A DNA stretch of 64,000 bases from Candidatus Marinacidobacterales bacterium. GTDB taxonomy: Bacteria > Acidobacteriota > Vicinamibacteria > Marinacidobacterales > SMYC01. Within the stretch, counting starts at the first letter, position 1. Every line of letters starts with the position of its first letter. The notes under the pieces are model-generated. The model was not told the DNA's origin and searched no databases. It worked only from the letters and a program-made list of their open reading frames with translations. Shown one piece after another: positions 1,379 through 59,590 of the stretch. Where the stretch lies: contig CBDCYI010000005.1 of assembly GCA_965224085.1 (NCBI GenBank), positions 224,001 to 288,000 of the forward strand, written 5' to 3'. A program made the translations under genes and the position numbers.

Positions 1379-2290
1379 ATGCGTAACAAATATCTGTTGT
1401 TTCACGTCTTGGTCCTCTTGGCGGTTGGCGCCTCGGTCGCGCTCGCCCAGATGGGCACGGGGCGCATCAGAGGCTCGGCCGAGGACACCAACGGGCAGCC
1501 AATCGAAGGGGCGGTCATCACCGCGACGAGCGCGGACGGCAAAAAAACCCTGGAAACGACGAGCGGAAGCGACGGGAAATGGGCGATTCTTGGCTTCCGC
1601 TCCGGCATGTATGATCTCACCGTCGTCGCGGACGGCTTTATCCCGCAGGCCTACAAGCAACAGGTTAGCGGGTTCGGCCGCAACCCGACGATGGATTTCG
1701 TCCTCGAGCCGGTCGCGGAAGCGCCAAGCGGCGGTTCGATGCTCGTCGAAGCCAACGCGATGTTCGAGAACGGTCAGTATGAAGAAGCGTTGATAAAATA
1801 CGAAGCGTTCCTCTCCACCGAGCCGATGGCTTATCAGATCCATTACAACATCGGGGTCGTCTATGCCAGGCTGGAGGAATATGACAAGGCCGTCGAGTCC
1901 TACGAAAAAGTACTTGCCGCAGAGCCCATGCATAGCGGCTCGCTCATCGCGATCGGCGACGTCATGGTCCAACAGCAAAAGTACGACGAGGCCGTCGTCT
2001 ATTTCGAAAAAGCTATCGACCAGACGGAGGACGAGGTCGTCCCATTCAACGTCGCCGAGATCTATTTCAACCGCGGAGAGACCGACAGAGCGATTGAGCT
2101 CTACACCCTCGCGGCCGAGCGCAAACCCGACTGGCAGGACCCGCTCCTCAAGCTCGCCTACGCCAATTTGAACAAAGGTGATATGGACGCGGCAAAGACG
2201 GCACTCGAGGCCTGCGTCGCGGTCGCGCCAGACACGGTGGAGGGACAAACGGCGGCGCAGATGCTGCAGTCGCCGGCATTCGCTAACTAG
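1379..2290 (+). CDS. Secreted carboxypeptidase-regulatory-like domain + TPR repeat protein
   Basis: Signal peptide MRNKYLLFHVLVLLAVGASVALA; GRIRG..D.NGQPIEGA.I beta-sandwich motif; several TPR helices (YNIGVVYARLEEYDKAVESYEK). The TAG stop coincides with the IS terminus. Confidence 0.85.
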   Translation: MRNKYLLFHVLVLLAVGASVALAQMGTGRIRGSAEDTNGQPIEGAVITATSADGKKTLETTSGSDGKWAILGFRSGMYDLTVVADGFIPQAYKQQVSGFGRNPTMDFVLEPVAEAPSGGSMLVEANAMFENGQYEEALIKYEAFLSTEPMAYQIHYNIGVVYARLEEYDKAVESYEKVLAAEPMHSGSLIAIGDVMVQQQKYDEAVVYFEKAIDQTEDEVVPFNVAEIYFNRGETDRAIELYTLAAERKPDWQDPLLKLAYANLNKGDMDAAKTALEACVAVAPDTVEGQTAAQMLQSPAFAN

Positions 2291-2463
2291 TTCCTGTCCA
2301 GAAACACCATAACTTGTGGTGTACGAGAGGCCTATCGAAGATGTGGGTATTATACGTTTTCAGTCGGCACCTCGTAGGCTCGGAAGCGAATGAAAATCTT
2401 GGACGAAACGAGAGGCGAATCGTCAGCAATCCATGGCTATAAACGCAGTAAGAGTAATCATTA

Positions 2464-3828
2464 TTATCGTAATAGGTGCCTTGCCATTACCAACAGGTTG
2501 CAGGTGATGATGGAACTCCATACGTAGGATTTGAAAGAAGGCAATGAGCGCCATGTGCATCGGTCGAGACCAAAGACTCGTTTCAAGAACGAAATGACGC
2601 CTTCGATTCCGCAGCGAAATCGCCGTAGGCGTTGATAGACCCAGGAACTCTTGACCATATCGGTCACCGCGAAGTGAGCCTTGGTAAAGGCAACATCTTC
2701 AACTCCCTTGCCTTTGATGGCTTCCAAGTTTGCCTTTGAAGAAAACGCGCCATCGTAGGCAACCTGGCGCGGGGCCCGTTCGTAGAGTTCGACTTGACGG
2801 TCGATCATGGTTTCCGCGAGAGTTGAATCGGACGGATTCCCATCCAAGATCACGCAATCCAAAATCATCGAGGACGAGCCACCAGTCAAACACACCTTGT
2901 GACCGTAGAGAGTCTCGCGCCGGTCTTTGCGAATAATGTCGGTGTGTTCTTCGAAGATCGAAACGACCTTTTCCTCCGCAGGCACACGCTCTTCATCAAT
3001 CACTCTACGCCGAGTTTGGTTGATGACTTTTTCGGTGAGGACGAGAAAGTGCTTAAAATCCGCGGCGATCTTCTCCGCACTCGCTCGCTTCACCGGCTCG
3101 GTCAAGCCGGACTCGTCCAACTGGTCTGCAACGCGTTGAGCGGAGCGATAGGTTTCTTCCGACACCTTCAGTAGATCTCGATAGACGCGACGCCTTTGTT
3201 CCTTATCCTTCGCGTTTAGAACTCCCAGTCGACGTCTCTTCGCTCGACGCGTTCGATTGCCGAAGACCACTACTGTACCCAGCAGTTCGCGAGTTCGGCA
3301 CATGAGGCGAGTGAGAACTCGGACGCAGTCATAAAGAAGCTCGGAGTCCGTAGGAGAATGAATATTCGACTCCACTACCGTGCAGTCCACTCGTACTTTT
3401 CTTCCTTTTTCGATCGCGGTCTTCTCGGCAACACTCACCAACTCTCGGTTGATTTTCTCCAGCGTTTCGAACTTCACGGCTTTGATGTTTGCTGCTAGGG
3501 TCGACTTCGACGGGCTCGGCTCTATGATGCCGAGCTGGCAAAACGTCCGATAGCTTCGAGAGTCTGCCAAGTGAAACGCCAGCTCCCGATAGGTGAACTG
3601 ATTCAGCTGCTTGACCAACAACGCCCGGAGAACCTGCTCCGCGCTCATTCCCCCACGACCAACATCGCTCCCTGCCGATGGGGTGACCGACCTCAGGTCT
3701 TGCAGTACCAGCTCATTGAGCTTAGGATGGGCATCGAGCAGCGATGATATCGTTTCGAGCTCGCGTGCGTGCTCCAGCTCCAGCCAGGGCTCGCGAAGGC
3801 TTGGTTGTGGGTTGATCGTTTTTCGCAT
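2464..3828 (-). CDS. DDE transposase (DUF772-like N-terminus + DDE core; IS5/ISNCY type)
   Basis: Motifs VRVDCTVVESNIHSPTDS, YGHKV, YDGAF, R.GIEG.IS.LKR.FGL.RC; RBS AAGGAG upstream. Confidence 0.92.
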   Translation of the reverse strand: MRKTINPQPSLREPWLELEHARELETISSLLDAHPKLNELVLQDLRSVTPSAGSDVGRGGMSAEQVLRALLVKQLNQFTYRELAFHLADSRSYRTFCQLGIIEPSPSKSTLAANIKAVKFETLEKINRELVSVAEKTAIEKGRKVRVDCTVVESNIHSPTDSELLYDCVRVLTRLMCRTRELLGTVVVFGNRTRRAKRRRLGVLNAKDKEQRRRVYRDLLKVSEETYRSAQRVADQLDESGLTEPVKRASAEKIAADFKHFLVLTEKVINQTRRRVIDEERVPAEEKVVSIFEEHTDIIRKDRRETLYGHKVCLTGGSSSMILDCVILDGNPSDSTLAETMIDRQVELYERAPRQVAYDGAFSSKANLEAIKGKGVEDVAFTKAHFAVTDMVKSSWVYQRLRRFRCGIEGVISFLKRVFGLDRCTWRSLPSFKSYVWSSIITCNLLVMARHLLR

Positions 3829-3923
3829 TTAGGGCTGGTCTCCTTTGGAGTTAAGTCGTTTAGAATCTGCGTTTTTGTCGACTCGATACTAAACGACACT
3901 CCCTCAGAAGGCTAGCCCTAAAT
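3827..3923 (-). promoter_or_regulatory. Long hairpin covering the transposase RBS and start codon (also at 5517-5613)
   Basis: Nested complementary pairs ATTTAGGGCT/AGCCCTAAAT, GGAGT/ACTCC and GTCGTTTAG/CTAAACGAC enclose AAGGAG and the ATG. Confidence 0.6.
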
Positions 3924-3977
3924 TTGCGATTACCCCTTTTTTCTCAACCTCTTACACCTGTCAGGACGGGTACTAAC

Positions 3978-5665
3978 TAGTTCCTGTCCAGAAACACCAT
4001 AACTTGTGGTGTACGAGAGGCCTATCGAAGGTGTGGGTATTATACGTTTTCAGTCGGCACCTCGTAGGCTCGGAAGCGAATGAAAATCTTGGACGAAACG
4101 AGAGGCGAATCGTCAGCAATCCATGGCTATAAACGCAGTAAGAGTAATCATTATTATCGTAATAGGTGCCTTGCCATTACCAACAGGTTGCAGGTGATGA
4201 TGGAACTCCATACGTAGGATTTGAAAGAAGGCAATGAGCGCCATGTGCATCGGTCGAGACCAAAGACTCGTTTCAAGAACGAAATGACGCCTTCGATTCC
4301 GCAGCGAAATCGCCGTAGGCGTTGATAGACCCAGGAACTCTTGACCATATCGGTCACCGCGAAGTGAGCCTTGGTAAAGGCAACATCTTCAACTCCCTTG
4401 CCTTTGATGGCTTCCAAGTTTGCCTTTGAAGAAAACGCGCCATCGTAGGCAACCTGGCGCGGGGCCCGTTCGTAGAGTTCGACTTGACGGTCGATCATGG
4501 TTTCCGCGAGAGTTGAATCGGACGGATTCCCATCCAAGATCACGCAATCCAAAATCATCGAGGACGAGCCACCAGTCAAACACACCTTGTGACCGTAGAG
4601 AGTCTCGCGCCGGTCTTTGCGAATAATGTCGGTGTGTTCTTCGAAGATCGAAACGACCTTTTCCTCCGCAGGCACACGCTCTTCATCAATCACTCTACGC
4701 CGAGTTTGGTTGATGACTTTTTCGGTGAGGACGAGAAAGTGCTTAAAATCCGCGGCGATCTTCTCCGCACTCGCTCGCTTCACCGGCTCGGTCAAGCCGG
4801 ACTCGTCCAACTGGTCTGCAACGCGTTGAGCGGAGCGATAGGTTTCTTCCGACACCTTCAGTAGATCTCGATAGACGCGACGCCTTTGTTCCTTATCCTT
4901 CGCGTTTAGAACTCCCAGTCGACGTCTCTTCGCTCGACGCGTTCGATTGCCGAAGACCACTACTGTACCCAGCAGTTCGCGAGTTCGGCACATGAGGCGA
5001 GTGAGAACTCGGACGCAGTCATAAAGAAGCTCGGAGTCCGTAGGAGAATGAATATTCGACTCCACTACCGTGCAGTCCACTCGTACTTTTCTTCCTTTTT
5101 CGATCGCGGTCTTCTCGGCAACACTCACCAACTCTCGGTTGATTTTCTCCAGCGTTTCGAACTTCACGGCTTTGATGTTTGCTGCTAGGGTCGACTTCGA
5201 CGGGCTCGGCTCTATGATGCCGAGCTGGCAAAACGTCCGATAGCTTCGAGAGTCTGCCAAGTGAAACGCCAGCTCCCGATAGGTGAACTGATTCAGCTGC
5301 TTGACCAACAACGCACGGAGAACCTGCTCCGCGCTCATTCCCCCACGACCAACATCGCTCCCTGCCGATGGGGTGACCGACCTCAGGTCTTGCAGTACCA
5401 ACTCATTGAGCTTAGGATGGGCATCGAGCACCGACGAGATCGCTTCGAGCTCGCGCGCGTGCTCCACCTCCAGCCAGGGCTCGCATAGGCTTGGTTGTGG
5501 GTTGATCGTTTTTCGCATTTAGGGCTGGTCTCCTTTGGAGTTAAGTCGTTTAGAATCTGCGTTTTTGTCGACTCGATACTAAACGACACTCCCTCAGAAG
5601 GCTAGCCCTAAATTTGCGATTACCCCTTTTTTCTCAACCTCTTACACCTGTCAGGACGGGTACTA
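3978..5665 (-). mobile_element. IS5/ISNCY-type insertion sequence, copy 2
   Basis: Direct repeat of 2288-3975 with the same IRs and a few SNPs; 2-bp AC between adjacent IRs. Confidence 0.9.
4154..5518 (-). CDS. DDE transposase, copy 2
   Basis: 454 aa; identical to copy 1 except four substitutions in the first 30 residues. Confidence 0.92.
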   Translation of the reverse strand: MRKTINPQPSLCEPWLEVEHARELEAISSVLDAHPKLNELVLQDLRSVTPSAGSDVGRGGMSAEQVLRALLVKQLNQFTYRELAFHLADSRSYRTFCQLGIIEPSPSKSTLAANIKAVKFETLEKINRELVSVAEKTAIEKGRKVRVDCTVVESNIHSPTDSELLYDCVRVLTRLMCRTRELLGTVVVFGNRTRRAKRRRLGVLNAKDKEQRRRVYRDLLKVSEETYRSAQRVADQLDESGLTEPVKRASAEKIAADFKHFLVLTEKVINQTRRRVIDEERVPAEEKVVSIFEEHTDIIRKDRRETLYGHKVCLTGGSSSMILDCVILDGNPSDSTLAETMIDRQVELYERAPRQVAYDGAFSSKANLEAIKGKGVEDVAFTKAHFAVTDMVKSSWVYQRLRRFRCGIEGVISFLKRVFGLDRCTWRSLPSFKSYVWSSIITCNLLVMARHLLR

Positions 5666-5667
5666 AC

Positions 5668-6572
5668 TAGTTCCTGTCCAGAAACACCATAACTTGTGGT
5701 GTACGAGAGGCCTATCGAAGATGTGGGTATTATACGTTTTCAGTCGGCACCTCGTAGGCTCGGAAGCGAATGAAAATCTTGGACGAAACGAGAGGCGAAT
5801 CGTCAGCAATCCATGGCTATAAACGCAGTAAGAGTAATCATTATTATCGTAATAGGTGCCTTGCCATTACCAACAGGTTGCAGGTGATGATGGAACTCCA
5901 TACGTAGGATTTGAAAGAAGGCAATGAGCGCCATGTGCATCGGTCGAGACCAAAGACTCGTTTCAAGAACGAAATGACGCCTTCGATTCCGCAGCGAAAT
6001 CGCCGTAGGCGTTGATAGACCCAGGAACTCTTGACCATATCGGTCACCGCGAAGTGAGCCTTGGTAAAGGCAACATCTTCAACTCCCTTGCCTTTGATGG
6101 CTTCCAAGTTTGCCTTTGAAGAAAACGCGCCATCGTAGGCAACCTGGCGCGGGGCCCGTTCGTAGAGTTCGACTTGACGGTCGATCATGGTTTCCGCGAG
6201 AGTTGAATCGGACGGATTCCCATCCAAGATCACGCAATCCAAAATCATCGAGGACGAGCCACCAGTCAAACACACCTTGTGACCGTAGAGAGTCTCGCGC
6301 CGGTCTTTGCGAATAATGTCGGTGTGTTCTTCGAAGATCGAAACGACCTTTTCCTCCGCAGGCACACGCTCTTCATCAATCACTCTACGCCGAGTTTGGT
6401 TGATGACTTTTTCGGTGAGGACGAGAAAGTGCTTAAAATCCGCGGCGATCTTCTCCGCACTCGCTCGCTTCACCGGCTCGGTCAAGCCGGACTCGTCCAA
6501 CTGGTCTGCAACGCGTTGAGCGGAGCGATAGGTTTCTTCCGACACCTTCAGTAGATCTCGATAGACGCGACG
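5668..6572 (-). mobile_element. IS5/ISNCY-type element, truncated copy 3 (transposase C-terminal half only)
   Basis: Identical to copies 1/2 from the IR at 5668 to ...ATAGACGCGACG at 6572, then switches abruptly to GWxTD gene sequence; no second IR. Confidence 0.9.
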
Positions 6573-21138: not shown

Positions 21139-22319
21139 CAGGCGTTGGCCCGGGCCCGGGCCATAAAGCTGCCTATCCTTTCAACTACATAACTCACGTC
21201 ATCCTCGCTCATCTGCGGGTAGATCGGGAGCGACACGATCTGCTGGGCCAGGCGTTCAGCGACGGGGTTCTGACCTACCTTCGCGCTGTAGCGTTCACGG
21301 TAGACGCGGTCCAGGTGGATCGGTGTGGGGTAGTGCACCGAGGACTGGATACCCTGCTCCGCGAGGAATCGGCGGAGCTCATCACGATTTGGAGCGCGAA
21401 TCTCGAAGCGGACGTAGGAGTGGTAGGCGTATGCACGTTCGACCGGCAGGCCAATAGGAACGTCCAGCTGATTCAGCAGCGTACAGTATTGCGCGGCTCT
21501 CGCTCTTCGCGTCTCGATCCAAGCTGGAAGAAGGCGGAGCTGCACACGTGCGATGGCAGACAAGATTTCTGACTGCCTGTACATGTAGCCAACTTCATCG
21601 TGCTCCTGCGAAAGGTAGGCCTTCTCGGCTTTCCTACCTACTTGGAAGGGTTCTCCTCGAGCGTGGTTGGCCAGGTTGAAGACGCGACGGACCTTGGCGG
21701 TATCAAAAGACGCCACGGCCCCCCCCTCGCCTCCGCAGGTCATGGCCTTGTTCTGCACGAAGCTGTAGCAGCCCATGTCGCCGATGGTGCCGACGGCCCT
21801 GCCTCGGTGGCGGGCGGCCACAGCCTGGCAGGCATCCTCGATGACCAGCAGGTCATGTTTTTGGGCAATGGTCATGATGCGGTCCATGTCCGCTGGGTGC
21901 CCGGCCGTGTGCACCGGCATGATGGCGTGCGTGCGCGGGGTAACCGCGGCTTCAACCGCGTCGGGATCGAGATTGTAAGAATCCTCTTCAACATCCACGG
22001 CAACCGGATCGGCACCGACCAACCAGACGCAGTCGGCTACGCTGCTGAAAGTATTGGCCGGGATGATGACTTCGTCGCCAGGCTCTAGCCCGTGCACCAG
22101 CCACGCCAGATGCATGGCAGCCGTACCCGAACTCAAGTTGGCAACCGCCGGACAGCGCGAGTCAGGTCCTTGAATAAACGCGGCAAATTCTTCCTCGAAC
22201 CGCTTGCCCTCGGAGTCACTATCGGGATCTGTCCGGATATAACGGCCGCTCTCTAACACCCGGGCCGCGGCTTCCTTCATCTCCTGAGTGAGGACCGGTC
22301 GAAACGCTACTTGGTGCAT
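21138..22319 (-). CDS. DegT/DnrJ/EryC1/StrS-family aminotransferase
   Basis: SSGTAAMH, PGDEVIIP, IMPVH, IEDACQA, SFVQNKAMTCGGEGG, HYPTPIH, SLPIYP; RBS AAGGAG 6 nt before ATG 22319. Confidence 0.93.
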   Translation of the reverse strand: MHQVAFRPVLTQEMKEAAARVLESGRYIRTDPDSDSEGKRFEEEFAAFIQGPDSRCPAVANLSSGTAAMHLAWLVHGLEPGDEVIIPANTFSSVADCVWLVGADPVAVDVEEDSYNLDPDAVEAAVTPRTHAIMPVHTAGHPADMDRIMTIAQKHDLLVIEDACQAVAARHRGRAVGTIGDMGCYSFVQNKAMTCGGEGGAVASFDTAKVRRVFNLANHARGEPFQVGRKAEKAYLSQEHDEVGYMYRQSEILSAIARVQLRLLPAWIETRRARAAQYCTLLNQLDVPIGLPVERAYAYHSYVRFEIRAPNRDELRRFLAEQGIQSSVHYPTPIHLDRVYRERYSAKVGQNPVAERLAQQIVSLPIYPQMSEDDVSYVVERIGSFMARARANA

Positions 22320-22354
22320 GGCCACTCCTTCAAGTCTTTCACATCCGAATCGAT

Positions 22355-27501: not shown

Positions 27502-27608
27502 AAATAAAACCTCTTGAACTAAGCCGCTCGCGCGGCGGCGGGACCTGCAAGCTCTCCCGAACTGGTGAGCCAAACTGGGGGCATTTTGCCTGCGCCTTTT
27601 TCGCCGCA

Positions 27609-27879
27609 GCCCATCGCCCTTCCAGGGAATCACGGCGCGCAGGTCGTGTCAAGGGTTTCGCGCGCTTCGCGCGCCGCTGGAAATGTTGGATTGGCTGGGG
27701 CAGTGCGGGTTGCACGATTGCTGCGCCGCCCTGGAGGTTGCGCGAGACGCGGTGTTCGGCACGGCCACGAGCGAATTGCTGGAAATGTTGGATTGGCTGG
27801 GGCGCGGTTGCACGATTGTAGCTGCGCCGCCCTGGACACGACCTACGCGCCGTGATGCGAGTCACTATGGGCGATGGGC
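27609..27879. repeat. Long stem-loop in the element leader, with a 144-bp loop insertion containing two ~60-bp direct repeats
   Basis: Outer stem GCCCATCGCCC/GGGCGATGGGC; inner stem ATCACGGCGCGCAGGTCGTGTCAAGGG/CCCTGGACACGACCTACGCGCCGTGAT; repeats at 27676-27735 and 27778-27836. Confidence 0.85.
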
Positions 27880-28157
27880 GGACGGGTGCCTCCGGCAGGG
27901 GCTCCGGACTCCGGGTTTTGCACGGCAAGCCAGCCGCGGTGAACTCACTCGCCTCTAACCCGTTTCCCTTGTTTTTCCGGGCCACGGGAGCCAGAAGGGA
28001 TTAAGGAGGACGGCTTCGCCGTCGTCTTCATTCGTTCGATCTTCGCTCCGGACAACGAGTCCTGCGTTTCTCGGAACCGCTCTCTCACACATGGCATCAT
28101 CCCTGTCCCCCGCGGGCGGCGATGGTCGTCGTCTGCTAAATCACTGGAGGAATAATC

Positions 28158-29018
28158 ATGGGATGCCTTAGCGAAAAAATGCTTGCCGACATGAAACTGA
28201 AGGGGTTCGCACGCTCCACGCAGGAGGAGTATCTGCTGCGAGCGCGCCATTTCGCGGCACATTACATGCGCTCACCCGCCGAGATGGGCGAGCCGGAGAC
28301 CCGCGATTATCTGATTCATCTCGTTAACGAGAAGAAGGCCTCTCCGGCCAGCCACCACATGTACGTCGCCTCTCTCAAGTTTCTCTACGCAACCACACTC
28401 AACCGCCCGGAGGAGGTGGCGAAGATTCCTTGGCCCAAGAAACCTCGAACGTTACCCGATATCTTGAGCGGCGAGGAGGTCGATTGTTTGCTTCACTCCG
28501 TTCACTCCGTCAAACACCGCGCGATTCTCATGAGCGCCTACGGCGCCGGGCTGCGCGTTTCCGAGGTGTGCTGTCTGAAGCACTCCGACATCGACTCCAA
28601 ACGCATGCTCTTGCACATTCGTCACGCCAAGAACTCCAAGGCCCGCTATGTCACGCTCAGCGAACGTTTGTTGAGCTTCCTGCGCTACTACTGGAAAACC
28701 ACTCGCCCTCGCGGAGAGTACTTGTTTCCCGGCCGTAATCCTGGTGCCCACATCTCAGACGATGGCGTTCGCTGGGCTCTTCGTAAGGCCGTGGCTGAGG
28801 CGGGGCTCACCAAACGTATCACTCCTCATTCGCTGCGCCACGGTTTTGCCACACATATGCTCGAACTGGGTGAAGACATTCGTACCGTGCAGCAACTGCT
28901 CGGTCATGCCTCCATCCAGACCACGGCCCGTTACACAAAGGTAACAGCAAAGCACTTGGGGCGCATCAAGAGCCCTCTCGATTTGCTGGGAACGAAGAAG
29001 GGCAAAAAGCTCGGCTAG
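28158..29018 (+). CDS. Tyrosine recombinase (phage integrase family)
   Basis: YGAGLRVSE (R), AKNSKAR (K), HSLRH (HxxR), LLGHAS (H), TTARY (Y); RBS GGAGG. Confidence 0.96.
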   Translation: MGCLSEKMLADMKLKGFARSTQEEYLLRARHFAAHYMRSPAEMGEPETRDYLIHLVNEKKASPASHHMYVASLKFLYATTLNRPEEVAKIPWPKKPRTLPDILSGEEVDCLLHSVHSVKHRAILMSAYGAGLRVSEVCCLKHSDIDSKRMLLHIRHAKNSKARYVTLSERLLSFLRYYWKTTRPRGEYLFPGRNPGAHISDDGVRWALRKAVAEAGLTKRITPHSLRHGFATHMLELGEDIRTVQQLLGHASIQTTARYTKVTAKHLGRIKSPLDLLGTKKGKKLG

Positions 29019-29024
29019 CTCATC

Positions 29025-30272
29025 ATGCAGCCCCATGGGCTGTGTCCTTCCCGCGTCGAGTCACCACCACGGCCACTGCTCGAGATCGCGGAAATCTTCC
29101 GCGAACATGGTCCACGCTTTCGCCAAACCCATGCGCTGACAGCCGAGCAGCGCAAGGTGATGTGGGCTATAGAGAACTGTCGCACGGCGGTGCTAGGTGG
29201 CCATCTCGACGTGTGTAACGCTTGCGGATACGCGGCGCCTTCGTTTAACTCGTGCCGCAATCGGCACTGTCCCAAGTGTCAGAGCCTAGCCCAGGCGAAG
29301 TGGATGGAGCAGCGAGCTCAGAGGATTCTTCCGACTCACTATTTCCACGTCGTTTTCACCCTCCCGCAGCAACTCAAGCCTCTCGCCCGAGACAATCCCA
29401 AGTTCATGTTCAACCTCCTGTTTCGCGCCGCCTCGCGAACTCTATTGGAGTTCGGCCAAAGCCGGCTCGAAGCTCAACTTGCCTTCACCGCCGTACTGCA
29501 CACCTGGACCCGGAAGCTCCTGTTCCATCCACACCTGCATTGCATCGTCTCCGGGGGCGGGCTCAACCACCCTCAGCAGCTGTGGAACGCCGCAAACCCT
29601 CGCTTTCTGTTTCCCGTCAAGGCCATGTCGCGGCTTTTTCGCAGCAAGTTTCTCGATGCCCTTAGGCTCGCTTACGACCAAGATGAGCTTGAGTTGAGCG
29701 CAAACGCTTCCCACCTCAGAAACCCACCTCGCTTCCGGGAGCTGAAAGACAAGCTCTACCGCATCGATTGGGTCGTTTACAGCAAACGACCCTTCGGTGG
29801 CCCAGAGCAGGTTTTCAACTACCTCGGCCGATATACCCACCGGGTCGGCATCTCCAACCGCCGACTCATTCGCATCGACCACTACGGCGTCTGCTTCGCC
29901 ACCAAGAATGGTAATACCGTTACCGTCCCCCCAGAGGAATTTATCCGCCGTTTCCTCCTGCACGTACTGCCGAAAGGTTTCGTCAAGATTCGCCATTTCG
30001 GCTTAATGGCCTCCTCCAATGCGACCACCAAGCTCGTAGTCGCGCGCCAGTTGCTCGATGAGAAAACAAAACCCACGACCGACGCCGACGACGTGCAAGT
30101 CAGCTCGCGTGCCACCGAGGACAAGGACTGGCGCGAGCGGCTCAAGGAGCTCACCGGCATCGACCTCACCATCTGTCCCCGCTGCAAGAAAGGTCGCATG
30201 CTCCGATGCCCTCTCTCCACGAAGCTTCGACGGATCAACCTCCAGATCCGCTCCCCTCCAGATGAGTCATGA
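29025..30272 (+). CDS. IS91-family rolling-circle transposase (Zn-binding + Y2 HUH)
   Basis: CRTAVLGGH, SCRNRHCPKC, YFHVVFTLP, LHTW, HPHLHC (HUH), YLGRYTHR (Y2), RRFLLHVLP.GF.KIRHFG. Confidence 0.96.
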   Translation: MQPHGLCPSRVESPPRPLLEIAEIFREHGPRFRQTHALTAEQRKVMWAIENCRTAVLGGHLDVCNACGYAAPSFNSCRNRHCPKCQSLAQAKWMEQRAQRILPTHYFHVVFTLPQQLKPLARDNPKFMFNLLFRAASRTLLEFGQSRLEAQLAFTAVLHTWTRKLLFHPHLHCIVSGGGLNHPQQLWNAANPRFLFPVKAMSRLFRSKFLDALRLAYDQDELELSANASHLRNPPRFRELKDKLYRIDWVVYSKRPFGGPEQVFNYLGRYTHRVGISNRRLIRIDHYGVCFATKNGNTVTVPPEEFIRRFLLHVLPKGFVKIRHFGLMASSNATTKLVVARQLLDEKTKPTTDADDVQVSSRATEDKDWRERLKELTGIDLTICPRCKKGRMLRCPLSTKLRRINLQIRSPPDES

Positions 30273-30646
30273 TCACGATGCTTTCGCTCCGCCTCTCACA
30301 ACGCCGACCGGTCGTTGAAACGGACTCGTGTGTCTCGTCGCGAACTCATAACGCTACCGTGGTGGTTACCGCACCGGGTAGGCCCTTCTTCTATCTTCCC
30401 CGCCATATCTCTGTCGATTCGCAACTCCCTGACGTCCAACTCCGACTTCCTGTCCGACCGTCTTCTCACTCCAATTTATGCATAGTTGCCGCTAGCTGGG
30501 CGGCTTAGTTCAATTACGGTTTGCACGAATGCTCGCTCTACAAGCATCGTGCCTCGCGTAACGCCGTGCTTCGCTCGATTCCTGCAAACCGCTATTAATT
30601 TCTCGGAAAGTGCCAGACCATTCCTTGATTAAATCATGTCTACTCC

Positions 30647-42452: not shown

Positions 42453-42534
42453 TCCGCCAGCTCCTTCACGCGCTCTGGTGTCAGATCGAATCCTTCTTCC
42501 GCTAGGTACTTCCGCTAGCCGGTAGAGGTCGAAC

Positions 42535-42793
42535 CATAACCCGCTCACTCCTCCACGCAGGGCAGCAAGGAAAACAAGGCGGGCGGGAGCTCCTCCGAAT
42601 CAGTCCATTCTGCGTTTTCCCTGAGGGGAGTCCCTATCCGTCATCGCGGCGGACTTTATCCGACTGCCAGGCGTGACCGTATTCACGCTCAGGTTCAGCT
42701 CGCTCAGCTCGGGCAAGCGCATGAGTCCAGTCTCGGCGTTCCTGTGGGGTGAAAATCCTACAGAGAACCTGCCGCTCGACTGCCATAACATTA
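42535..42793 (-). ncRNA. Putative orphan IS110/IS1111-type left end with structured non-coding region (candidate bridge/seek RNA locus); transposase absent
   Basis: Minus strand starts TAATGTT-ATGGCAGTCG, continues through several stem-loops and ends GGAGGAGTGAGCGGGTT-ATG. The ORF after that ATG stops after 11 codons. Family assignment is by recalled similarity only. Confidence 0.45.
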
Positions 42794-42799
42794 ATTGAA

Positions 42800-43339
42800 G
42801 TGAACAACCACCGCCTAGAAGGCGGTGGCTTCAAGGGCTGTCAATTGGAAATTGACTGTCGTCGTGAAGAGGCTCGCCATCCTGGGAGTCTATGTACTCC
42901 TTTACCATCTCGTCCGTTATGCTTCCTGAACTCACCGCCAGATATCCTCGGGCCCAGAAGTGCCGGCCCCAAAACTTCTTCCTCAGGTGAGCAAACTCCT
43001 GAAGGAGTACTCGGGAGCTTATTCCTTTTAGCCACTGCACGATCGTACTCAGGTCCTGGTGTGGTCGGTAGGATACGAACACGTGGACGTGGTCGCGTGC
43101 AACCTTACCCGAGATTATGTGCAGCTCATGTTCCATCGCGATCTGACGAATCAGATCGCGCACACGAACCGCTACTGGACCGATCAAAACCTTTTTACGA
43201 TATTTCGGTATCCAAACGATGTGCGCTTTTAGGTCCGTTTTCGTGTGCGCTCCGTGCCTGTAGTGACGCACGCGACCACAATACCACGATCTTCTCTTCG
43301 CCTAAAGGCGAGGGGTTTCGACCATCCCCGGAAGAGACA
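42800..43339 (-). mobile_element. IS200-type (tnpA-only) insertion sequence
   Basis: Subterminal hairpins CCACCGCCTAGAAGGCGGTGG and CTTCGCCTAAAGGCGAGG; right end ...GTTCAC; inserted 3' of TTAG with no target duplication. Confidence 0.9.
42831..43271 (-). CDS. tnpA: IS200/IS605-family Y1 HUH transposase
   Basis: HIVWIPKYRKKVL, DHVH (HUH), LKGISSR, FWARGY, EYIDSQ (catalytic Tyr). Confidence 0.96.
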   Translation of the reverse strand: MRHYRHGAHTKTDLKAHIVWIPKYRKKVLIGPVAVRVRDLIRQIAMEHELHIISGKVARDHVHVFVSYRPHQDLSTIVQWLKGISSRVLLQEFAHLRKKFWGRHFWARGYLAVSSGSITDEMVKEYIDSQDGEPLHDDSQFPIDSP

Positions 43340-43834
43340 CTAAGCCGCTCGCGCGGCGGCGGGACCTGCAAGCTCTCCCGAACTGGTGAGCCAAACTGGG
43401 GGCATTTTGCCTGCGCCTTTTTCGCCGCAGCCCATCGCCCTTCCAGGGAATCACGGCGCGCAGGTCGTGTCAAGGGTTTCGCGCGCTTCGCGCGCCGGCT
43501 GCGCCGCCCTGGACACGACCTACGCGCCGTGATGCGAGTCACTATGGGCGATGGGCGGACGGGTGCCTCCGGCAGGGGCTCCGGACTCCGGGTTTTGCAC
43601 GGCAAGCCAGCCGCGGTGAACTCACTCGCCTCTAACCCGTTTCCCTTGTTTTTCCGGGCCACGGGAGCCAGAAGGGATTAAGGAGGACGGCTTCGCCGTC
43701 GTCTTCATTCGTTCGATCTTCGCTCCGGACAACGAGTCCTGCGTTTCTCGGAACCGCTCTCTCACACATGGCATCATCCCTGTCCCCCGCGGGCGGCGAT
43801 GGTCGTCGTCTGCTAAATCACTGGAGGAATAATC

Positions 43835-44695
43835 ATGGGATGCCTTAGCGAAAAAATGCTTGCCGACATGAAACTGAAGGGGTTCGCACGCTCCACGCAG
43901 GAGGAGTATCTGCTGCGAGCGCGCCATTTCGCGGCACATTACATGCGCTCACCCGCCGAGATGGGCGAGCCGGAGACCCGCGATTATCTGATTCATCTCG
44001 TTAACGAGAAGAAGGCCTCTCCGGCCAGCCACCACATGTACGTCGCCTCTCTCAAGTTTCTCTACGCAACCACACTCAACCGCCCGGAGGAGGTGGCGAA
44101 GATTCCTTGGCCCAAGAAACCTCGCACGTTACCCGATATCTTGAGCGGCGAGGAGGTCGATTGTTTGCTTCACTCCGTTAACTCCGTCAAACACCGCGCG
44201 ATTCTCATGAGCGCCTACGGCGCCGGGCTGCGCGTTTCCGAGGTGTGCTGTCTGAAGCACTCCGACATCGACTCCAAACGCATGCTCTTGCACATTCGTC
44301 ACGCCAAGAACTCCAAGGCCCGCTATGTCACGCTCAGCGAACGTTTGTTGAGCTTCCTGCGCTACTACTGGAAAACCACTCGCCCTCGCGGAGAGTACTT
44401 GTTTCCCGGCCGTAATCCTGGTGCCCACATCTCAGACGATGGCGTTCGCTGGGCTCTTCGTAAGGCCGTGGCTGAGGCGGGGCTCACCAAACGTATCACT
44501 CCTCATTCGCTGCGCCACGGTTTTGCCACACATATGCTCGAACTGGGTGAAGACATTCGTACCGTGCAGCAACTGCTCGGTCATGCCTCCATCCAGACCA
44601 CGGCCCGTTACACAAAGGTAACAGCAAAGCACTTGGGGCGCATCAAGAGCCCTCTCGATTTGCTGGGAACGAAGAAGGGCAAAAAGCTCGGCTAG
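43835..44695 (+). CDS. Tyrosine recombinase, copy 2
   Basis: Same as 28158-29018 except one H/N substitution. Confidence 0.96.
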   Translation: MGCLSEKMLADMKLKGFARSTQEEYLLRARHFAAHYMRSPAEMGEPETRDYLIHLVNEKKASPASHHMYVASLKFLYATTLNRPEEVAKIPWPKKPRTLPDILSGEEVDCLLHSVNSVKHRAILMSAYGAGLRVSEVCCLKHSDIDSKRMLLHIRHAKNSKARYVTLSERLLSFLRYYWKTTRPRGEYLFPGRNPGAHISDDGVRWALRKAVAEAGLTKRITPHSLRHGFATHMLELGEDIRTVQQLLGHASIQTTARYTKVTAKHLGRIKSPLDLLGTKKGKKLG

Positions 44696-44701
44696 CTCAT
44701 C

Positions 44702-45949
44702 ATGCAGCCCCATGGGCTGTGTCCTTCCCGCGTCGAGTCACCACCACGGCCACTGCTCGAGATCGCGGAAATCTTCCGCGAACATGGTCCACGCTTTCGC
44801 CAAACCCATGCGCTGACAGCCGAGCAGCGCAAGGTGATGTGGGCTATAGAGAACTGTCGCACGGCGGTGCTAGGTGGCCATCTCGACGTGTGTAACGCTT
44901 GCGGATACGCGGCGCCTTCGTTTAACTCGTGCCGCAATCGGCACTGTCCCAAGTGTCAGAGCCTAGCCCAGGCGAAGTGGATGGAGCAGCGAGCTCAGAG
45001 GATTCTTCCGACTCACTATTTCCACGTCGTTTTCACCCTCCCGCAGCAACTCAAGCCTCTCGCCCGAGACAATCCCAAGTTCATGTTCAACCTCCTGTTT
45101 CGCGCCGCCTCGCGAACTCTATTGGAGTTCGGCCAAAGCCGGCTCGAAGCTCAACTTGCCTTCACCGCCGTACTGCACACCTGGACCCGGAAGCTCCTGT
45201 TCCATCCACACCTGCATTGCATCGTCTCCGGGGGCGGGCTCAACCACCCTCAGCAGCTGTGGAACGCCGCAAACCCTCGCTTTCTGTTTCCCGTCAAGGC
45301 CATGTCGCGGCTTTTTCGCAGCAAGTTTCTCGATGCCCTTAGGCTCGCTTACGACCAAGATGAGCTTGAGTTGAGCGCAAACGCTTCCCACCTCAGAAAC
45401 CCACCTCGCTTCCGGGAGCTGAAAGACAAGCTCTACCGCATCGATTGGGTCGTTTACAGCAAACGACCCTTCGGTGGCCCAGAGCAGGTTTTCAACTACC
45501 TCGGCCGATATACCCACCGGGTCGGCATCTCCAACCGCCGACTCATTCGCATCGACCACTACGGCGTCTGCTTCGCCACCAAGAATGGTAATACCGTTAC
45601 CGTCCCCCCAGAGGAATTTATCCGCCGTTTCCTCCTGCACGTACTGCCGAAAGGTTTCGTCAAGATTCGCCATTTCGGCTTAATGGCCTCCTCCAATGCG
45701 ACCACCAAGCTCGTAGTCGCGCGCCAGTTGCTCGATGAGAAAACAAAACCCACGACCGACGCCGACGACGTGCAAGTCAGCTCGCGTGCCACCGAGGACA
45801 AGGACTGGCGCGAGCGGCTCAAGGAGCTCACCGGCATCGACCTCACCATCTGTCCCCGCTGCAAGAAAGGTCGCATGCTCCGATGCCCTCTCTCCACGAA
45901 GCTTCGACGGATCAACCTCCAGATCCGCTCCCCTCCAGATGAGTCATGA
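44702..45949 (+). CDS. IS91-family transposase, copy 2
   Basis: Protein appears identical to 29025-30272. Confidence 0.96.
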   Translation: MQPHGLCPSRVESPPRPLLEIAEIFREHGPRFRQTHALTAEQRKVMWAIENCRTAVLGGHLDVCNACGYAAPSFNSCRNRHCPKCQSLAQAKWMEQRAQRILPTHYFHVVFTLPQQLKPLARDNPKFMFNLLFRAASRTLLEFGQSRLEAQLAFTAVLHTWTRKLLFHPHLHCIVSGGGLNHPQQLWNAANPRFLFPVKAMSRLFRSKFLDALRLAYDQDELELSANASHLRNPPRFRELKDKLYRIDWVVYSKRPFGGPEQVFNYLGRYTHRVGISNRRLIRIDHYGVCFATKNGNTVTVPPEEFIRRFLLHVLPKGFVKIRHFGLMASSNATTKLVVARQLLDEKTKPTTDADDVQVSSRATEDKDWRERLKELTGIDLTICPRCKKGRMLRCPLSTKLRRINLQIRSPPDES

Positions 45950-46491
45950 TCACGATGCTTTCGCTCCGCCTCTCACAACGCCGACCGGTCGTTGAAACGG
46001 ACTCGTGTGTCTCGTCGCGAACTCATAACGCTACCGTGGTGGTTACCGCACCGGGTAGGCCCTTCTTCTATCTTCCCCGCCATATCTCTGTCGATTCGCA
46101 ACTCCCTGACGTCCAACTCCGACTTCCTGTCCGACCGTCTTCTCACTCCAATTTATGCATAGTTGCCGCTAGCTGGGCGGCTTAGTTCAATTACGGTTTG
46201 CACGAATGCTCGCTCTACAAGCATCGTGCCTCGCGTAACGCCGTGCTTCGCTCGATTCCTGCAAACCGCTATTAATAATGTTGGCGCCTAGGGTCGTGCC
46301 TGGTTCGAGCCTCATGTTAACCGGTGGGCCGTTGGATGCGAGTCATCATTCTAGCACCGGGACGCGGATCCCCTGTCGTATGGCCCCCTCGCTGCCGTAG
46401 ATGAGAGTCTCCCACGCTTCCAGCGTTCTCGATGCCACGGATTTGTGCTGCACCATCCTGTCTTTGCGTCTGAAAAATGTAACTACCGCTA

Positions 46492-53129: not shown

Positions 53130-53618
53130 ACCATCGCCGCCCGCGGGGGACAGGGATGATGCCATGTGTGAGAGAGCGGTTCCGAGAAACGCAGGACTCG
53201 TTGTCCGGAGCGAAGATCGAACGAATGAAGACGACGGCGAAGCCGTCCTCCTTAATCCCTTCTGGCTCCCGTGGCCCGGAAAAACAAGGGAAACCGGTTA
53301 GAGGCGAGTGAGTTCACCGCGGCTGGCTTGCCGTGCAAAACCCGGAGTCCGGAGCCCCTGCCGGAGGCACCCGTCCGCCCATCGCCCATAGTGACTCGCA
53401 TCACGGCGCGCAGGTCGTGTCCAGGGCGGCGCAGCCGGCGCGCGAAGGTCGTGCAGGGCGGCGCAAAGCGCGCGAAACCTTGACACGACCTGCGCGCCGT
53501 GATTCCCTGGAAGGGCGATGGGCTGCGGCGAAAAAGGCGCAGGCAAAATGCCCCCAGTTTGGCTCACCAGTTCGGGAGAGCTTGCAGGTCCCGCCGCCGC
53601 GCGAGCGGCTTAGTTCAA
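53130..53618 (-). mobile_element. Solo non-coding leader of the integrase/IS91 element (copy 3, inverted, no ORFs)
   Basis: Reverse complement of 27514-28126 apart from the loop; ends in GCGGCTTAGTTCAA at 53605-53618. Confidence 0.9.
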
Positions 53619-53734
53619 CAACGATTATGTAGAGCTCTACAATAATCACGGACTCCGCATTACAACAACTCTCGTCGCTGAGGATGGCCGAAGTGTGGCA
53701 GCTCTCTCGTTCGGCGTATCCTTGCCAATTGCTG

Positions 53735-59192: not shown

Positions 59193-59424
59193 TCGAGCTG
59201 CCAGGATCCGCATATCGAGCGGGCCACGGTCTCGACGAGACTGGGCGGTTAACTGGTTCCGCTCTTGCAACTCAGAGTGAAGTTGCTCGATGGGCCTTGT
59301 CGCCTATCACCGTTTATGCAAGCATACGCATTGCGCCGTGATCCTGGCCGAGGCAAGCCTGAGTTGTCTCGGGAGGAGCGAGTCAGCATCGATCCAAGCA
59401 TGAAGAGCGTTAGCAGGAGTTGCC

Positions 59425-59590
59425 ATGCACAAAGTATCGTTTCGGCCGGTCGTCACTGAGGAGATGAAGGAGGCCGCGGGCCAGGTGTTAGAGAACGTTA
59501 TATCCGGACGGATCCGGATAGTGATTCCGAGGGCAAGCGGTTCGAGGAGGAGTTCGCCGCGTTTGTGCAAGGACCGGACGGGCGCTACCT
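59425..59590 (+). pseudogene. 5' remnant of a second DegT-family aminotransferase
   Basis: MHKVSFRPVVTEEMKEAAGQVLE, then a frameshift to YIRTDPDSDSEGKRFEEEFAAFVQGPD, matching the N-terminus of 21138-22319; RBS AGGAG intact. Confidence 0.88.

What the first reader, a model, noticed from the sequence alone, without database searches (positions are those of the whole stretch)
27504..27527. All three left ends share ATAA-N6-TTGAACTAAGCCGC, a tyrosine-recombinase core-site geometry
Seen: ATAA-AACCTC-TTGAAC (27504), ATAA-CATTAA-TTGAA[IS200]C (42785) and ATAA-TCGTTG-TTGAAC (minus strand from 53628). The outer ATAA is constant and the 6-bp spacer varies. Joining the copy 2 flanks gives ACTGCCATAA-CATTAA-TAATGTTGGC, resembling the dif layout (..CATAA-N6-TTATGTT..). 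Established: Xer-type enzymes cut around 6-bp spacers, whereas IS91 transposases insert at a fixed tetranucleotide. Inference: the integrase rather than the HUH enzyme performs integration, tolerating non-homologous spacers. Caveat: the copy 2 flank may belong to the adjacent IS110-like end.
Basis: partly seen in the sequence, partly recalled or inferred. Interest (0 to 1): 0.8.

Follow-up and report, generated by a model that had tools for sequence, protein, structure and literature searches.

The report
Two-part insertion site of an IS91-type element
A rolling-circle insertion sequence that also carries a Xer-like integrase inserts, without duplicating its target, exactly 6 bp after an ATAA and just before a TT; the motif is real target DNA, but which enzyme reads it is still open.

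Summary
Observation confirmed and extended. The three sites are as described. The genome holds 13 left and 13 right ends of the element.

- Left flanks: ATAA at -10..-7 in 7 of 13. A at -10, -8 and -7 is 12 of 13 each, T at -9 is 9 of 13, C at -6 is 9 of 13.
- Right flanks: T 12 of 13, T 10 of 13, A 8 of 13.
- Empty sites for three copies in same-genus genomes show that ATAA-N6 is target DNA, that the element runs TTGAAC...CTATTAA, and that nothing is duplicated.
- Among 72 dereplicated left ends of relatives from metagenomes, ATAA sits at exactly -10 in 8, and 0-2 times at each of 26 other offsets.

The element is an IS91-family unit: a Xer-like integrase, a Y2 HUH transposase and hairpin ends. 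Its right-flank TT(A) follows the IS91 rule of an ori-side target resembling the left terminus. An integrase-bearing relative with 29 mapped copies (G351) has no left-flank motif at all, keeps the ori-side GTT rule, and shows replichore-like orientation.

Best reading: the HUH enzyme inserts, and ATAAC is an extra, lineage-specific determinant whose reader (transposase-end complex or integrase) is unresolved.

The parts
27504..27513 (+). Target DNA left of copy 1: ATAA (27504-27507) plus a 6-bp spacer
   Evidence: Present in the empty site of G002; sequence.
27514..27548 (+). Left end (terIS-like). A perfect 14-bp inverted repeat at 27514-27527 extends imperfectly to about 35 bp; a subterminal hairpin lies at 27523-27536
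   Evidence: Thirty predicted pairs link it to 30480-30513.
27680..27820 (+). Extra 141-bp segment found only in copy 1, made of a short repeat that occurs at many other loci
28158..29018 (+). Xer/IntI-like tyrosine recombinase, 286 aa
   Evidence: Pfam Phage_integrase and SAM_4. NCBIfam XerA 199 bits and IntI 193 bits, both below cut-off. Best solved relative is XerA 4a8e. R133, K158, H224/R227, H250 and Y259 are present.
29025..30272 (+). IS91-family Y2 HUH transposase, 415 aa
   Evidence: Pfam Y2_Tnp and Zn_Tnp_IS91. NCBIfam transpos_IS91 408 bits. H168, H170, H172, Y266 and Y270 are invariant in 16 sequences.
30480..30513 (+). Subterminal right inverted repeat; the perfect 14 bp lie at 30500-30513, and a hairpin at 30488-30504
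30514..30598 (+). 85-bp right terminal segment (oriIS-like). A 9-bp stem (30517-30525 with 30583-30591) encloses an inner hairpin. The element ends in CTATTAA at 30592-30598
   Evidence: The segment is conserved in G012 and G029.
30599..30602 (+). Right-flank target bases of copy 1 (TTTC)
42785..42794 (+). Target ATAA plus spacer left of copy 2
   Evidence: empty site in G002.
42795..46275 (+). Copy 2, interrupted by an IS200-type element at 42800-43339
53130..53618 (-). Copy 3: a left-end fragment of about 489 bp, truncated inside the element
53619..53628 (-). Target ATAA plus spacer next to copy 3

Best explanation
The motif is the target-site signature of an IS91-family insertion sequence. 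NCBI annotation names relatives of this group ISAzo26-like. The element carries a Xer-like tyrosine recombinase immediately upstream of its Y2 HUH transposase.

The element, TTGAAC...CTATTAA, inserts without target duplication into sites of the form ATAAC-N5-|-TT(A).

Shown:
- the exact boundaries of the element;
- the absence of a target duplication;
- that ATAA-N6 comes from the target;
- the position-specific preference on both sides of the insertion point.

Inferred:
- The strand transfer at N6|TT is done by the HUH transposase, as in IS91. A single strand is cut after ...CAA at the left (ter) end and after ...(T)AA in the target, and a single-stranded copy is inserted. The TT(A) next to the right (ori) end is then the family's usual target tetranucleotide, which resembles the element's own left terminus.
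- The ATAAC lying 6 bp from the left terminus is an extra determinant of this lineage, seen in only some relatives. It is read by the protein complex assembled on the left inverted repeat.

Whether that contact is made by the transposase (my odds about 0.45) or by the co-expressed integrase acting as an accessory (about 0.3) is not resolved.
For: 1. Boundaries and lack of duplication come from empty sites for three copies.

2. Counts on all 13 left and 13 right flanks, with probabilities:
- left: -10 A 12, -9 T 9, -8 A 12, -7 A 12, -6 C 9;
- right: +1 T 12, +2 T 10, +3 A 8;
- P(7 or more ATAA in 13) is about 9e-19.

3. IS91 identity of the enzyme and the ends.

4. The IS91 paradigm was read as passages of preprint 10.1101/2025.01.24.634351 and of PMC5737581:
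- terIS lies upstream of tnpA and oriIS downstream;
- there is no duplication;
- a target tetranucleotide lies beside oriIS and resembles the ter cleavage tetranucleotide;
- a single-stranded circle is the inserting form.

5. Integrase-bearing relatives obey the same rule:
- G013: 3 of 3 copies have CGTT both as the left terminus and as the right flank.
- G351: the left end is GTTGAAC in 29 of 29 copies. The right flank is GTT in 17 of the 22 right junctions found, GCT in 3 and GG in 2.

6. G351 copies on its main contig run +,+, then eleven -, then nine +, then -. Pooled flank GC skew is +0.016 for the + copies and -0.029 for the - copies. That pattern is expected for insertion coupled to replication.

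7. The upstream motif recurs in the family. ATAA lies at exactly -10 in 8 of 72 metagenomic left ends, and A at -8 in 38 of 72.
Against: - No experiment was done, so the enzyme assignments rest on analogy.
- The target half-sites resemble each other, (A/G)TAA on both strands 6 bp apart, more than they resemble the ter end. Read on the cut strand the ter end is TCAA, and none of the 13 targets has C at that position. This symmetry, with 6-bp spacing, is what a Xer-type dimer would give.
- The integrase keeps its catalytic Arg, Lys, His and Tyr residues across relatives of 28-61% identity, so it probably cuts DNA somewhere in the life cycle.
- Canonical IS91 elements are described with a tetranucleotide target only, so a transposase reading a second motif 7-10 bp away has no precedent that I found.
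- G000's own GC skew is too noisy to test orientation bias.
- The G351 skew estimate rests on 1.5-kb flanks.
Confidence: 0.55

Rival explanations
1. First reader's model. The Xer-like integrase performs integration, and the HUH enzyme only produces a single-stranded or double-stranded circle. The integrase exchanges one pair of strands at the right edge of a 6-bp central region of a dif-like pseudo-site (ATAA-N6-TTA). The intermediate is then resolved by replication, as for the CTX phage or integron cassettes, so spacers need not match.
For: - The Xer-like recombinase has a complete catalytic set, conserved in 16 relatives.
- The target is partly palindromic, TAA-N6-TTA, with the junction at an arm/spacer boundary.
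- That geometry defines Xer sites: 11-bp half-sites around a 6-bp central region that sets the cleavage positions (PMC5357621, passages).
- A single pair of strands exchanged between single-stranded phage DNA and the chromosome is known for the CTX phage (PMC3442271, abstract in listing).
- The predicted circle junction folds into a long imperfect hairpin.
- Three of 13 target spacers (CATTAA, CTTTAA, ATTTAA) resemble the element's last six bases.
- The int and tnp frames abut or overlap in 7 of 15 relatives.
Against: - G351's integrase-bearing element shows no conserved left-flank position (29 flanks, at most 13 of 29 at any of -20..-2) yet keeps the ori-side GTT rule. G143, G110 and G013 likewise lack ATAA.
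- The circle junction has CCGC, not ATAA, at -10..-7, and its two arms are not inverted repeats of each other.
- Only 4-5 bases on the left and 2-3 on the right are conserved. There is no 11-bp arm, and -14..-11 are unconserved.
- The right flank is already explained by the IS91 rule.
Confidence: 0.13
2. The integrase is an accessory that binds the left end together with the flanking ATAA as a core-type site, steering the HUH-catalysed insertion or helping termination. It sits in the gene position that orf121 occupies in IS91.
For: - The gene position and translational coupling match those of orf121 and tnpA.
- In 6 of the 8 metagenomic ends with ATAA, the base at -1 is G, as in relatives whose terminus is GTTGAAC. 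ATAA therefore keeps its register to TTGAAC rather than to the junction.
- The geometry is Xer-like.
Against: - Orf121 and the integrase are not detectably homologous (hhalign probability 0.1%; no shared Pfam family).
- There is no left motif in G351 despite an intact integrase.
- Conserved catalytic residues argue for more than binding.
Confidence: 0.27
3. There is no specific recognition. The ATAA reflects AT-rich or intergenic landing zones, or survival of harmless insertions.
For: Some flanks lie beside AT-rich palindromes.
Against: - The signal is confined to -10..-6 and +1..+3; neighbouring columns are at background.
- The register is exact in 72 unrelated metagenomic flanks.
- One copy lies in sequence conserved at about 90% across four genomes.
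Confidence: 0.03

Closest known systems
IS91 / IS801 / IS1294 (canonical IS91 family, HUH Y2 rolling-circle insertion sequences)
   Same: - Y2 HUH transposase with a zinc-binding N-terminus.
- terIS upstream and oriIS downstream, each with subterminal palindromes.
- No target duplication.
- A short target next to the ori end that resembles the ter terminus.
   Different: - Carries a catalytically intact Xer-like tyrosine recombinase where IS91 has the unrelated orf121.
- The target is TT(A) rather than GTTC/CTTG.
- There is a second, stronger determinant, ATAAC, 6 bp from the ter end. This is not described for the canonical members in the passages I read.
ISAzo26-type IS91 elements with an adjacent tyrosine recombinase (name taken from NCBI annotation of plasmid hits)
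   Same: The same gene pair, recombinase then IS91 transposase, is annotated on many plasmids and is found in G013, G033, G351 and 26 metagenomic loci. The left-end motif is shared.
   Different: A full-text search for 'ISAzo26' found no paper. Relatives with many copies (G351, G143) lack the ATAA preference.
CTX phage and other elements that exploit host XerCD at dif (IMEX)
   Same: Target geometry of short inverted arms around 6 bp; possible single-strand exchange completed by replication.
   Different: - This element has its own recombinase and an HUH enzyme.
- It inserts at 13 different sites, not at one dif.
- No 11-bp arms are conserved.
Integron cassette insertion (IntI, attC x attI)
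   Same: The recombinase scores nearly as well against the IntI models as against XerA. The junction lies 5' of TT. The folded, imperfect hairpin spanning the joined ends is reminiscent of a folded attC; that resemblance is recalled, not tested.
   Different: The IntI-specific insertion is missing: the match to IntI falls into two stretches that skip it, and the protein is 286 aa. There is no attI platform or cassette array.
IS200/IS605 family (IS608, ISDra2): single-strand transposition coupled to replication (recalled, no paper read here)
   Same: HUH chemistry on single strands; G351 copies show replichore-like orientation.
   Different: Y1 versus Y2 enzymes; different ends.

Membership tests
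IS91 family | Y2 HUH transposase (HUH motif, two catalytic Tyr, N-terminal zinc-binding domain) | tested here: met
   Pfam Y2_Tnp 6e-55 and Zn_Tnp_IS91 3e-31. NCBIfam transpos_IS91 408 bits against a cut-off of 125. H168/H170/H172 and Y266/Y270 are invariant.
IS91 family | No target-site duplication | tested here: met
   Empty sites for three copies.
IS91 family | Functionally different ends with subterminal palindromes: ter upstream of tnpA, ori downstream | tested here: met
   One hairpin at the left end, two in the right 130 bases. The function of the ends was not tested.
IS91 family | Short target next to the ori end, related to the ter terminal bases | tested here: met
   G000: T 12 of 13, T 10 of 13, A 8 of 13, against the terminus TTGA. 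G351: GTT 17 of 22 against GTTG. G013: CGTT 3 of 3.
IS91 family | Circular single-stranded intermediate; one-ended transposition | not testable with these tools
   Needs DNA from cells.
Tyrosine-recombinase (Xer-type) core-site integration | Recombinase with the R-K-H-R-H/W-Y catalytic set | tested here: met
   the definition comes from PMC5357621.
Tyrosine-recombinase (Xer-type) core-site integration | Both partner sites have two inverted arms of about 11 bp around a 6-8 bp central region | tested here: not met
   The target has only 4-5 plus 2-3 conserved bases. The element's joined ends have no inverted arms and no ATAA.
Tyrosine-recombinase (Xer-type) core-site integration | Crossover at an edge of the central region | tested here: inconclusive
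   The junction is 6 bp from ATAA and 5' of TT. An HUH cut at the same bond fits equally well.
Tyrosine-recombinase (Xer-type) core-site integration | The feature holds in relatives that carry the recombinase | tested here: not met
   G351: 29 flanks with no left motif. G143, G110 and G013 also lack it. It is present in a minority of metagenomic ends.
IMEX (integration at host dif by host XerCD) | Integration at the single chromosomal dif; no recombinase of its own | tested here: not met
   Thirteen different sites; the element has its own integrase.
Integron integrase / cassette | IntI-specific additional domain and score above the family cut-off | tested here: not met
   193 bits against a cut-off of 265; the match splits around the missing insertion.

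The most novel reading that the evidence does not exclude
A two-enzyme transposon. The HUH transposase copies the element out as a single-stranded circle whose joined ends fold into an attC-like hairpin. The element's own Xer/IntI-like recombinase then inserts that folded strand, by a single strand exchange at N6|TT, into degenerate dif-like pseudo-sites (ATAA-N6-TTA), without spacer homology. This would be a rolling-circle and tyrosine-recombinase hybrid pathway that has not been described.
Probability: 0.12. Interest if true: 0.85.

Novelty: new variant of a known kind. Interest (0 to 1): 0.45.

Why it matters
IS91-type elements move adjacent genes, including resistance and catabolic genes, yet their target choice is described as a single tetranucleotide. 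A large branch of the family carries a catalytically intact Xer-like recombinase, and I found no paper on its function.

This genome gives a clean, testable case:
- a bipartite target with fixed 6-bp spacing;
- three verified empty sites;
- natural contrasts in relatives that have the same gene pair but no upstream motif.

It makes the question 'what is the integrase for?' directly addressable with point mutants and designed target sites. If the integrase proved to be the integrating enzyme, it would be a new hybrid transposition pathway.

Tried and rejected
- Integrase-transposase contact: complex prediction with alignments A2 and A1 gave 'no answer' (score 0.00). This is no evidence either way.
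- Orf121 of IS91 as a relic of the integrase N-terminal domain: rejected. hhalign probability was 0.1% and Pfam gave only sub-threshold zinc-ribbon hits. Only the gene position is analogous.
- A known RNA in the element or in the 141-bp insert: no Rfam match at E up to 0.1.
- Truncated copies as products of premature termination with new ATAA flanks: rejected. The 10 5'-breakpoints and 11 3'-breakpoints examined abut other repeats or unrelated DNA and show no ATAA pattern.
- A hairpin formed by the target itself: among the 7 copies with both flanks, complementarity never extends beyond 2-3 pairs (read by eye).
- Target as completion of an extended inverted repeat (the bases next to the right repeat, read in reverse): only -8, -7, -6 and weakly -3 agree, while -10 and -9 disagree. 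I keep this as a weak lead only.
- Orientation against GC skew in G000: the skew is too noisy.
- Empty sites for the copies at C9:172352 and C5:574634: not found in G001-G004, because the flanks are repeats or are missing there.
- The search for related loci with the integrase in genome contigs returned only 3 distant loci.
- Literature: a search for 'ISAzo26' found 0 papers. Searches joining IS91 with tyrosine recombinase or phage integrase listed nothing on this gene pair in the titles and abstracts. In PMC9345347 and PMC12772301 I read only the passages around the terms, which were not relevant.
The supplements of preprint 10.1101/2025.01.24.634351, which list IS91 insertion sites, could show whether canonical IS91 has any ter-side flank preference.
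- G027 is unpublished and gave one weak match; no claim here rests on it.

Full report
**What is there.** The window holds two long copies and one fragment of a roughly 2.94-kb element.
- Copy 1 is 27514-30598 and includes an extra 141-bp insert.
- Copy 2 is 42795-46275 and includes a 540-bp IS200-type insertion.
- The fragment is 53618-53130 on the minus strand.

Each full copy encodes a 286-aa tyrosine recombinase, followed six bases later by a 415-aa IS91-family transposase.
- The recombinase scores best against archaeal XerA (199 bits), integron integrase (193), XerC (172) and XerD (162), all below the family cut-offs.
- Its closest solved relatives are XerA 4a8e and IntI4 2a3v.
- It has R133, K158, H224/R227, H250 and Y259.
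- The transposase is a clear IS91 equivalog (408 bits) with the HUH motif and two tyrosines.
- In alignments with 15 relatives of 28-61% identity, the catalytic residues of both proteins are invariant or nearly so.
- In 7 of those 15 relatives the two frames abut or overlap.

**Checking the observation.** I laid the whole genome and collected every end: 13 left ends, three of them with the IS200-type element at the same spot, and 13 right ends.

Counts on all of them:
- Left flank: -10 A 12 of 13, -9 T 9 of 13, -8 A 12 of 13, -7 A 12 of 13, -6 C 9 of 13. ATAA is exact in 7 of 13. The misses are ATAG, GTAA, AAAA, ACCA and AGAA twice.
- Right flank: +1 T 12 of 13, +2 T 10 of 13, +3 A 8 of 13.
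- Other columns sit at background.
- Given the genome's ATAA frequency, 7 or more in 13 has a probability of about 9e-19.

**Where the element ends.** Same-genus genomes lack the element and give empty sites.
- For copy 1, G002 reads ATAA AACCTC directly followed by TTTCTCGG.
- For the copy at C5:390789, G001, G003 and G004 read ATAA CGGAAG followed by AGAGG, where G000's right flank is AAAGG.
- For copy 2, G002 reads CCATAA CATTAA followed by TGATGTTGG.

Together these fix the element as TTGAAC...CTATTAA, show that nothing is duplicated, and show that ATAA and the six bases belong to the target.

**The ends.**
- The first 14 bases are repeated in inverse orientation at 30500-30513, which is 85 bp inside the right boundary. 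With imperfect extension, about 35 bases pair.
- The left end has one subterminal hairpin.
- The right 130 bases have two, one of them a 9-bp stem enclosing the terminal 85-bp segment.
- That terminal segment is conserved in relatives in G012 and G029.

This is the layout described for IS91: terIS upstream of tnpA with one palindrome, oriIS downstream with two, no duplication, a target tetranucleotide beside oriIS that resembles the ter cleavage tetranucleotide, and a single-stranded circle as the inserting form. I read this as passages of preprint 10.1101/2025.01.24.634351 and of PMC5737581.

**Relatives.** Plasmid records annotate the same gene pair, and one names it 'IS91-like element ISAzo26 family'.

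A metagenome scan with the left-end motif returned 80 loci before stopping at its limit.
- Twenty-six loci show integrase then transposase just downstream, and four more show the integrase only.
- Seven are miniature derivatives with the two inverted repeats 170-400 bp apart and no genes.
- Of 78 flanks with full length, 6 were dropped as near-duplicates.
- In the remaining 72, ATAA lies at exactly -10 in 8, and 0-2 times at each of 26 other offsets (P about 5e-12).
- A at -8 occurs in 38 of 72, and G at -1 in 39 of 72.

So the upstream motif recurs in the family, but only in a minority.

**Multi-copy relatives give the sharpest contrast.**

G351 has three full copies with integrase (287 aa) and transposase (372 aa), plus many shortened ones.
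- In the 29 left flanks read, of 30 copies, -1 is G in 29 of 29, and no other position from -20 to -2 exceeds 13 of 29. None has ATAA.
- Of the 22 right junctions found, 17 continue GTT, 3 GCT and 2 GG, against a left terminus GTTG.
- On its main contig the copies run +,+, then eleven -, then nine +, then -.
- Pooled flank GC skew has opposite sign for the two groups, +0.016 and -0.029. This pattern is expected if insertion is tied to the replication fork, as is known for single-strand HUH transposons (recalled, not read here).

Other relatives agree.
- G013's three copies have CGTT both as left terminus and as right flank, and no ATAA.
- G143 (four readable flanks of five copies) and G110 also show G at -1 and no ATAA.
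- Three G320 copies show CGAA, ACAA and ATAT.

**Reading.** The right-flank TT(A) in G000 is the family's ordinary ori-side target. The insertion chemistry is therefore most simply that of the HUH transposase. The ATAAC at -10..-6 is an additional determinant of this lineage.

What speaks for the integrase:
- The target is partly palindromic with 6-bp spacing, TAA-N6-TTA.
- The junction lies at an arm/spacer boundary, which is the geometry that defines Xer sites (PMC5357621, passages).
- The two half-sites resemble each other more than they resemble the element's own terminus.
- Its catalytic residues are conserved.
- A CTX-like single strand exchange would leave exactly these junctions (PMC3442271, abstract).

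What speaks against:
- The joined ends carry no ATAA and no inverted arms.
- Only 4-5 plus 2-3 target bases are conserved.
- Integrase-bearing relatives with many copies have no left motif at all.

I therefore put HUH-catalysed insertion at about 0.65-0.7. I leave open whether the transposase-end complex (about 0.45) or the integrase as an accessory (about 0.3) reads ATAAC.

**Limits.**
- All assignments of enzyme to step are by analogy.
- Two of the 13 left flanks are paralogous and may not be independent.
- The metagenomic ends sample one site per element.
- In one subfamily the inverted repeat runs 3-6 bases beyond TTGAAC, so its true terminus is not known.
- The G351 skew rests on short flanks.

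Noticed in passing
window 42800-43339; genome-wide in G000: A 540-bp IS200-type element (Y1_Tnp) is present about 40 times, and 34 copies with this end intact are followed by CTAA; in 40 rows the other flank mostly ends in AA. Four of the roughly 40 copies sit inside the terminal repeat of the IS91-type element, at the same bond (TTGAA|CTAAG). Three are in left repeats with different flanks and one is in a right repeat. This is a strong hot spot, perhaps because these ends become single-stranded.
   Followed up: partly
G351 loci L188-L217: Nearly every short copy of the related element in G351 has its own internal deletion: the shared left segment ranges from 52 to 1146 bases. Copy orientation switches with chromosome half.
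   Followed up: partly
window 27680-27820: Copy 1 carries an extra 141-bp segment built from a repeat of about 88 bp. The repeat occurs at about 11 other loci in G000 and at 89-95% identity in genomes of other genera and families (G033, G010, G012). It has no Rfam match.
   Followed up: partly
window about 27500, compared with L002 1400-1520: G002 has about 120 bp between the AT-rich hairpin and the ATAA that G000 lacks. This is a deletion (or an insertion in G002) ending right at the target motif of copy 1.
   Followed up: no
window 53629-53650; L004 2729-2750: The same 14-bp palindrome (TGTAGAGCTCTACA) lies just left of copy 3 in G000, where it occurs only once in the genome. It also lies immediately right of the 82%-identical element in G012.
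   Followed up: partly
G000 C4:1354383 and C11:397222: Two copies sit at the same position (AGAA CAAGTC) in flanks that are only about 88% identical to each other. They are either independent hits on paralogous sites or an old duplication with the insertion-sequence copies later homogenised.
   Followed up: no
metagenome loci L065, L077, L086, L095, L106, L118, L123: Miniature, gene-less derivatives carry the two inverted repeats 170-400 bp apart. Some sit beside unrelated genes.
   Followed up: partly
window 42520-42794 and 46276-46454: The DNA into which copy 2 inserted (about 456 bp) is absent from G003 and partly repeated in G002. It may itself be mobile. I did not identify it.
   Followed up: partly
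window 2283-6572: Three tandem copies of a 1690-bp unit, 99.5-100% identical.
   Followed up: no
window 22154-22329 and 59415-59586: A pair of inverted repeats of about 175 bp, 86% identical, lying 37 kb apart and bracketing the whole region studied.
   Followed up: no
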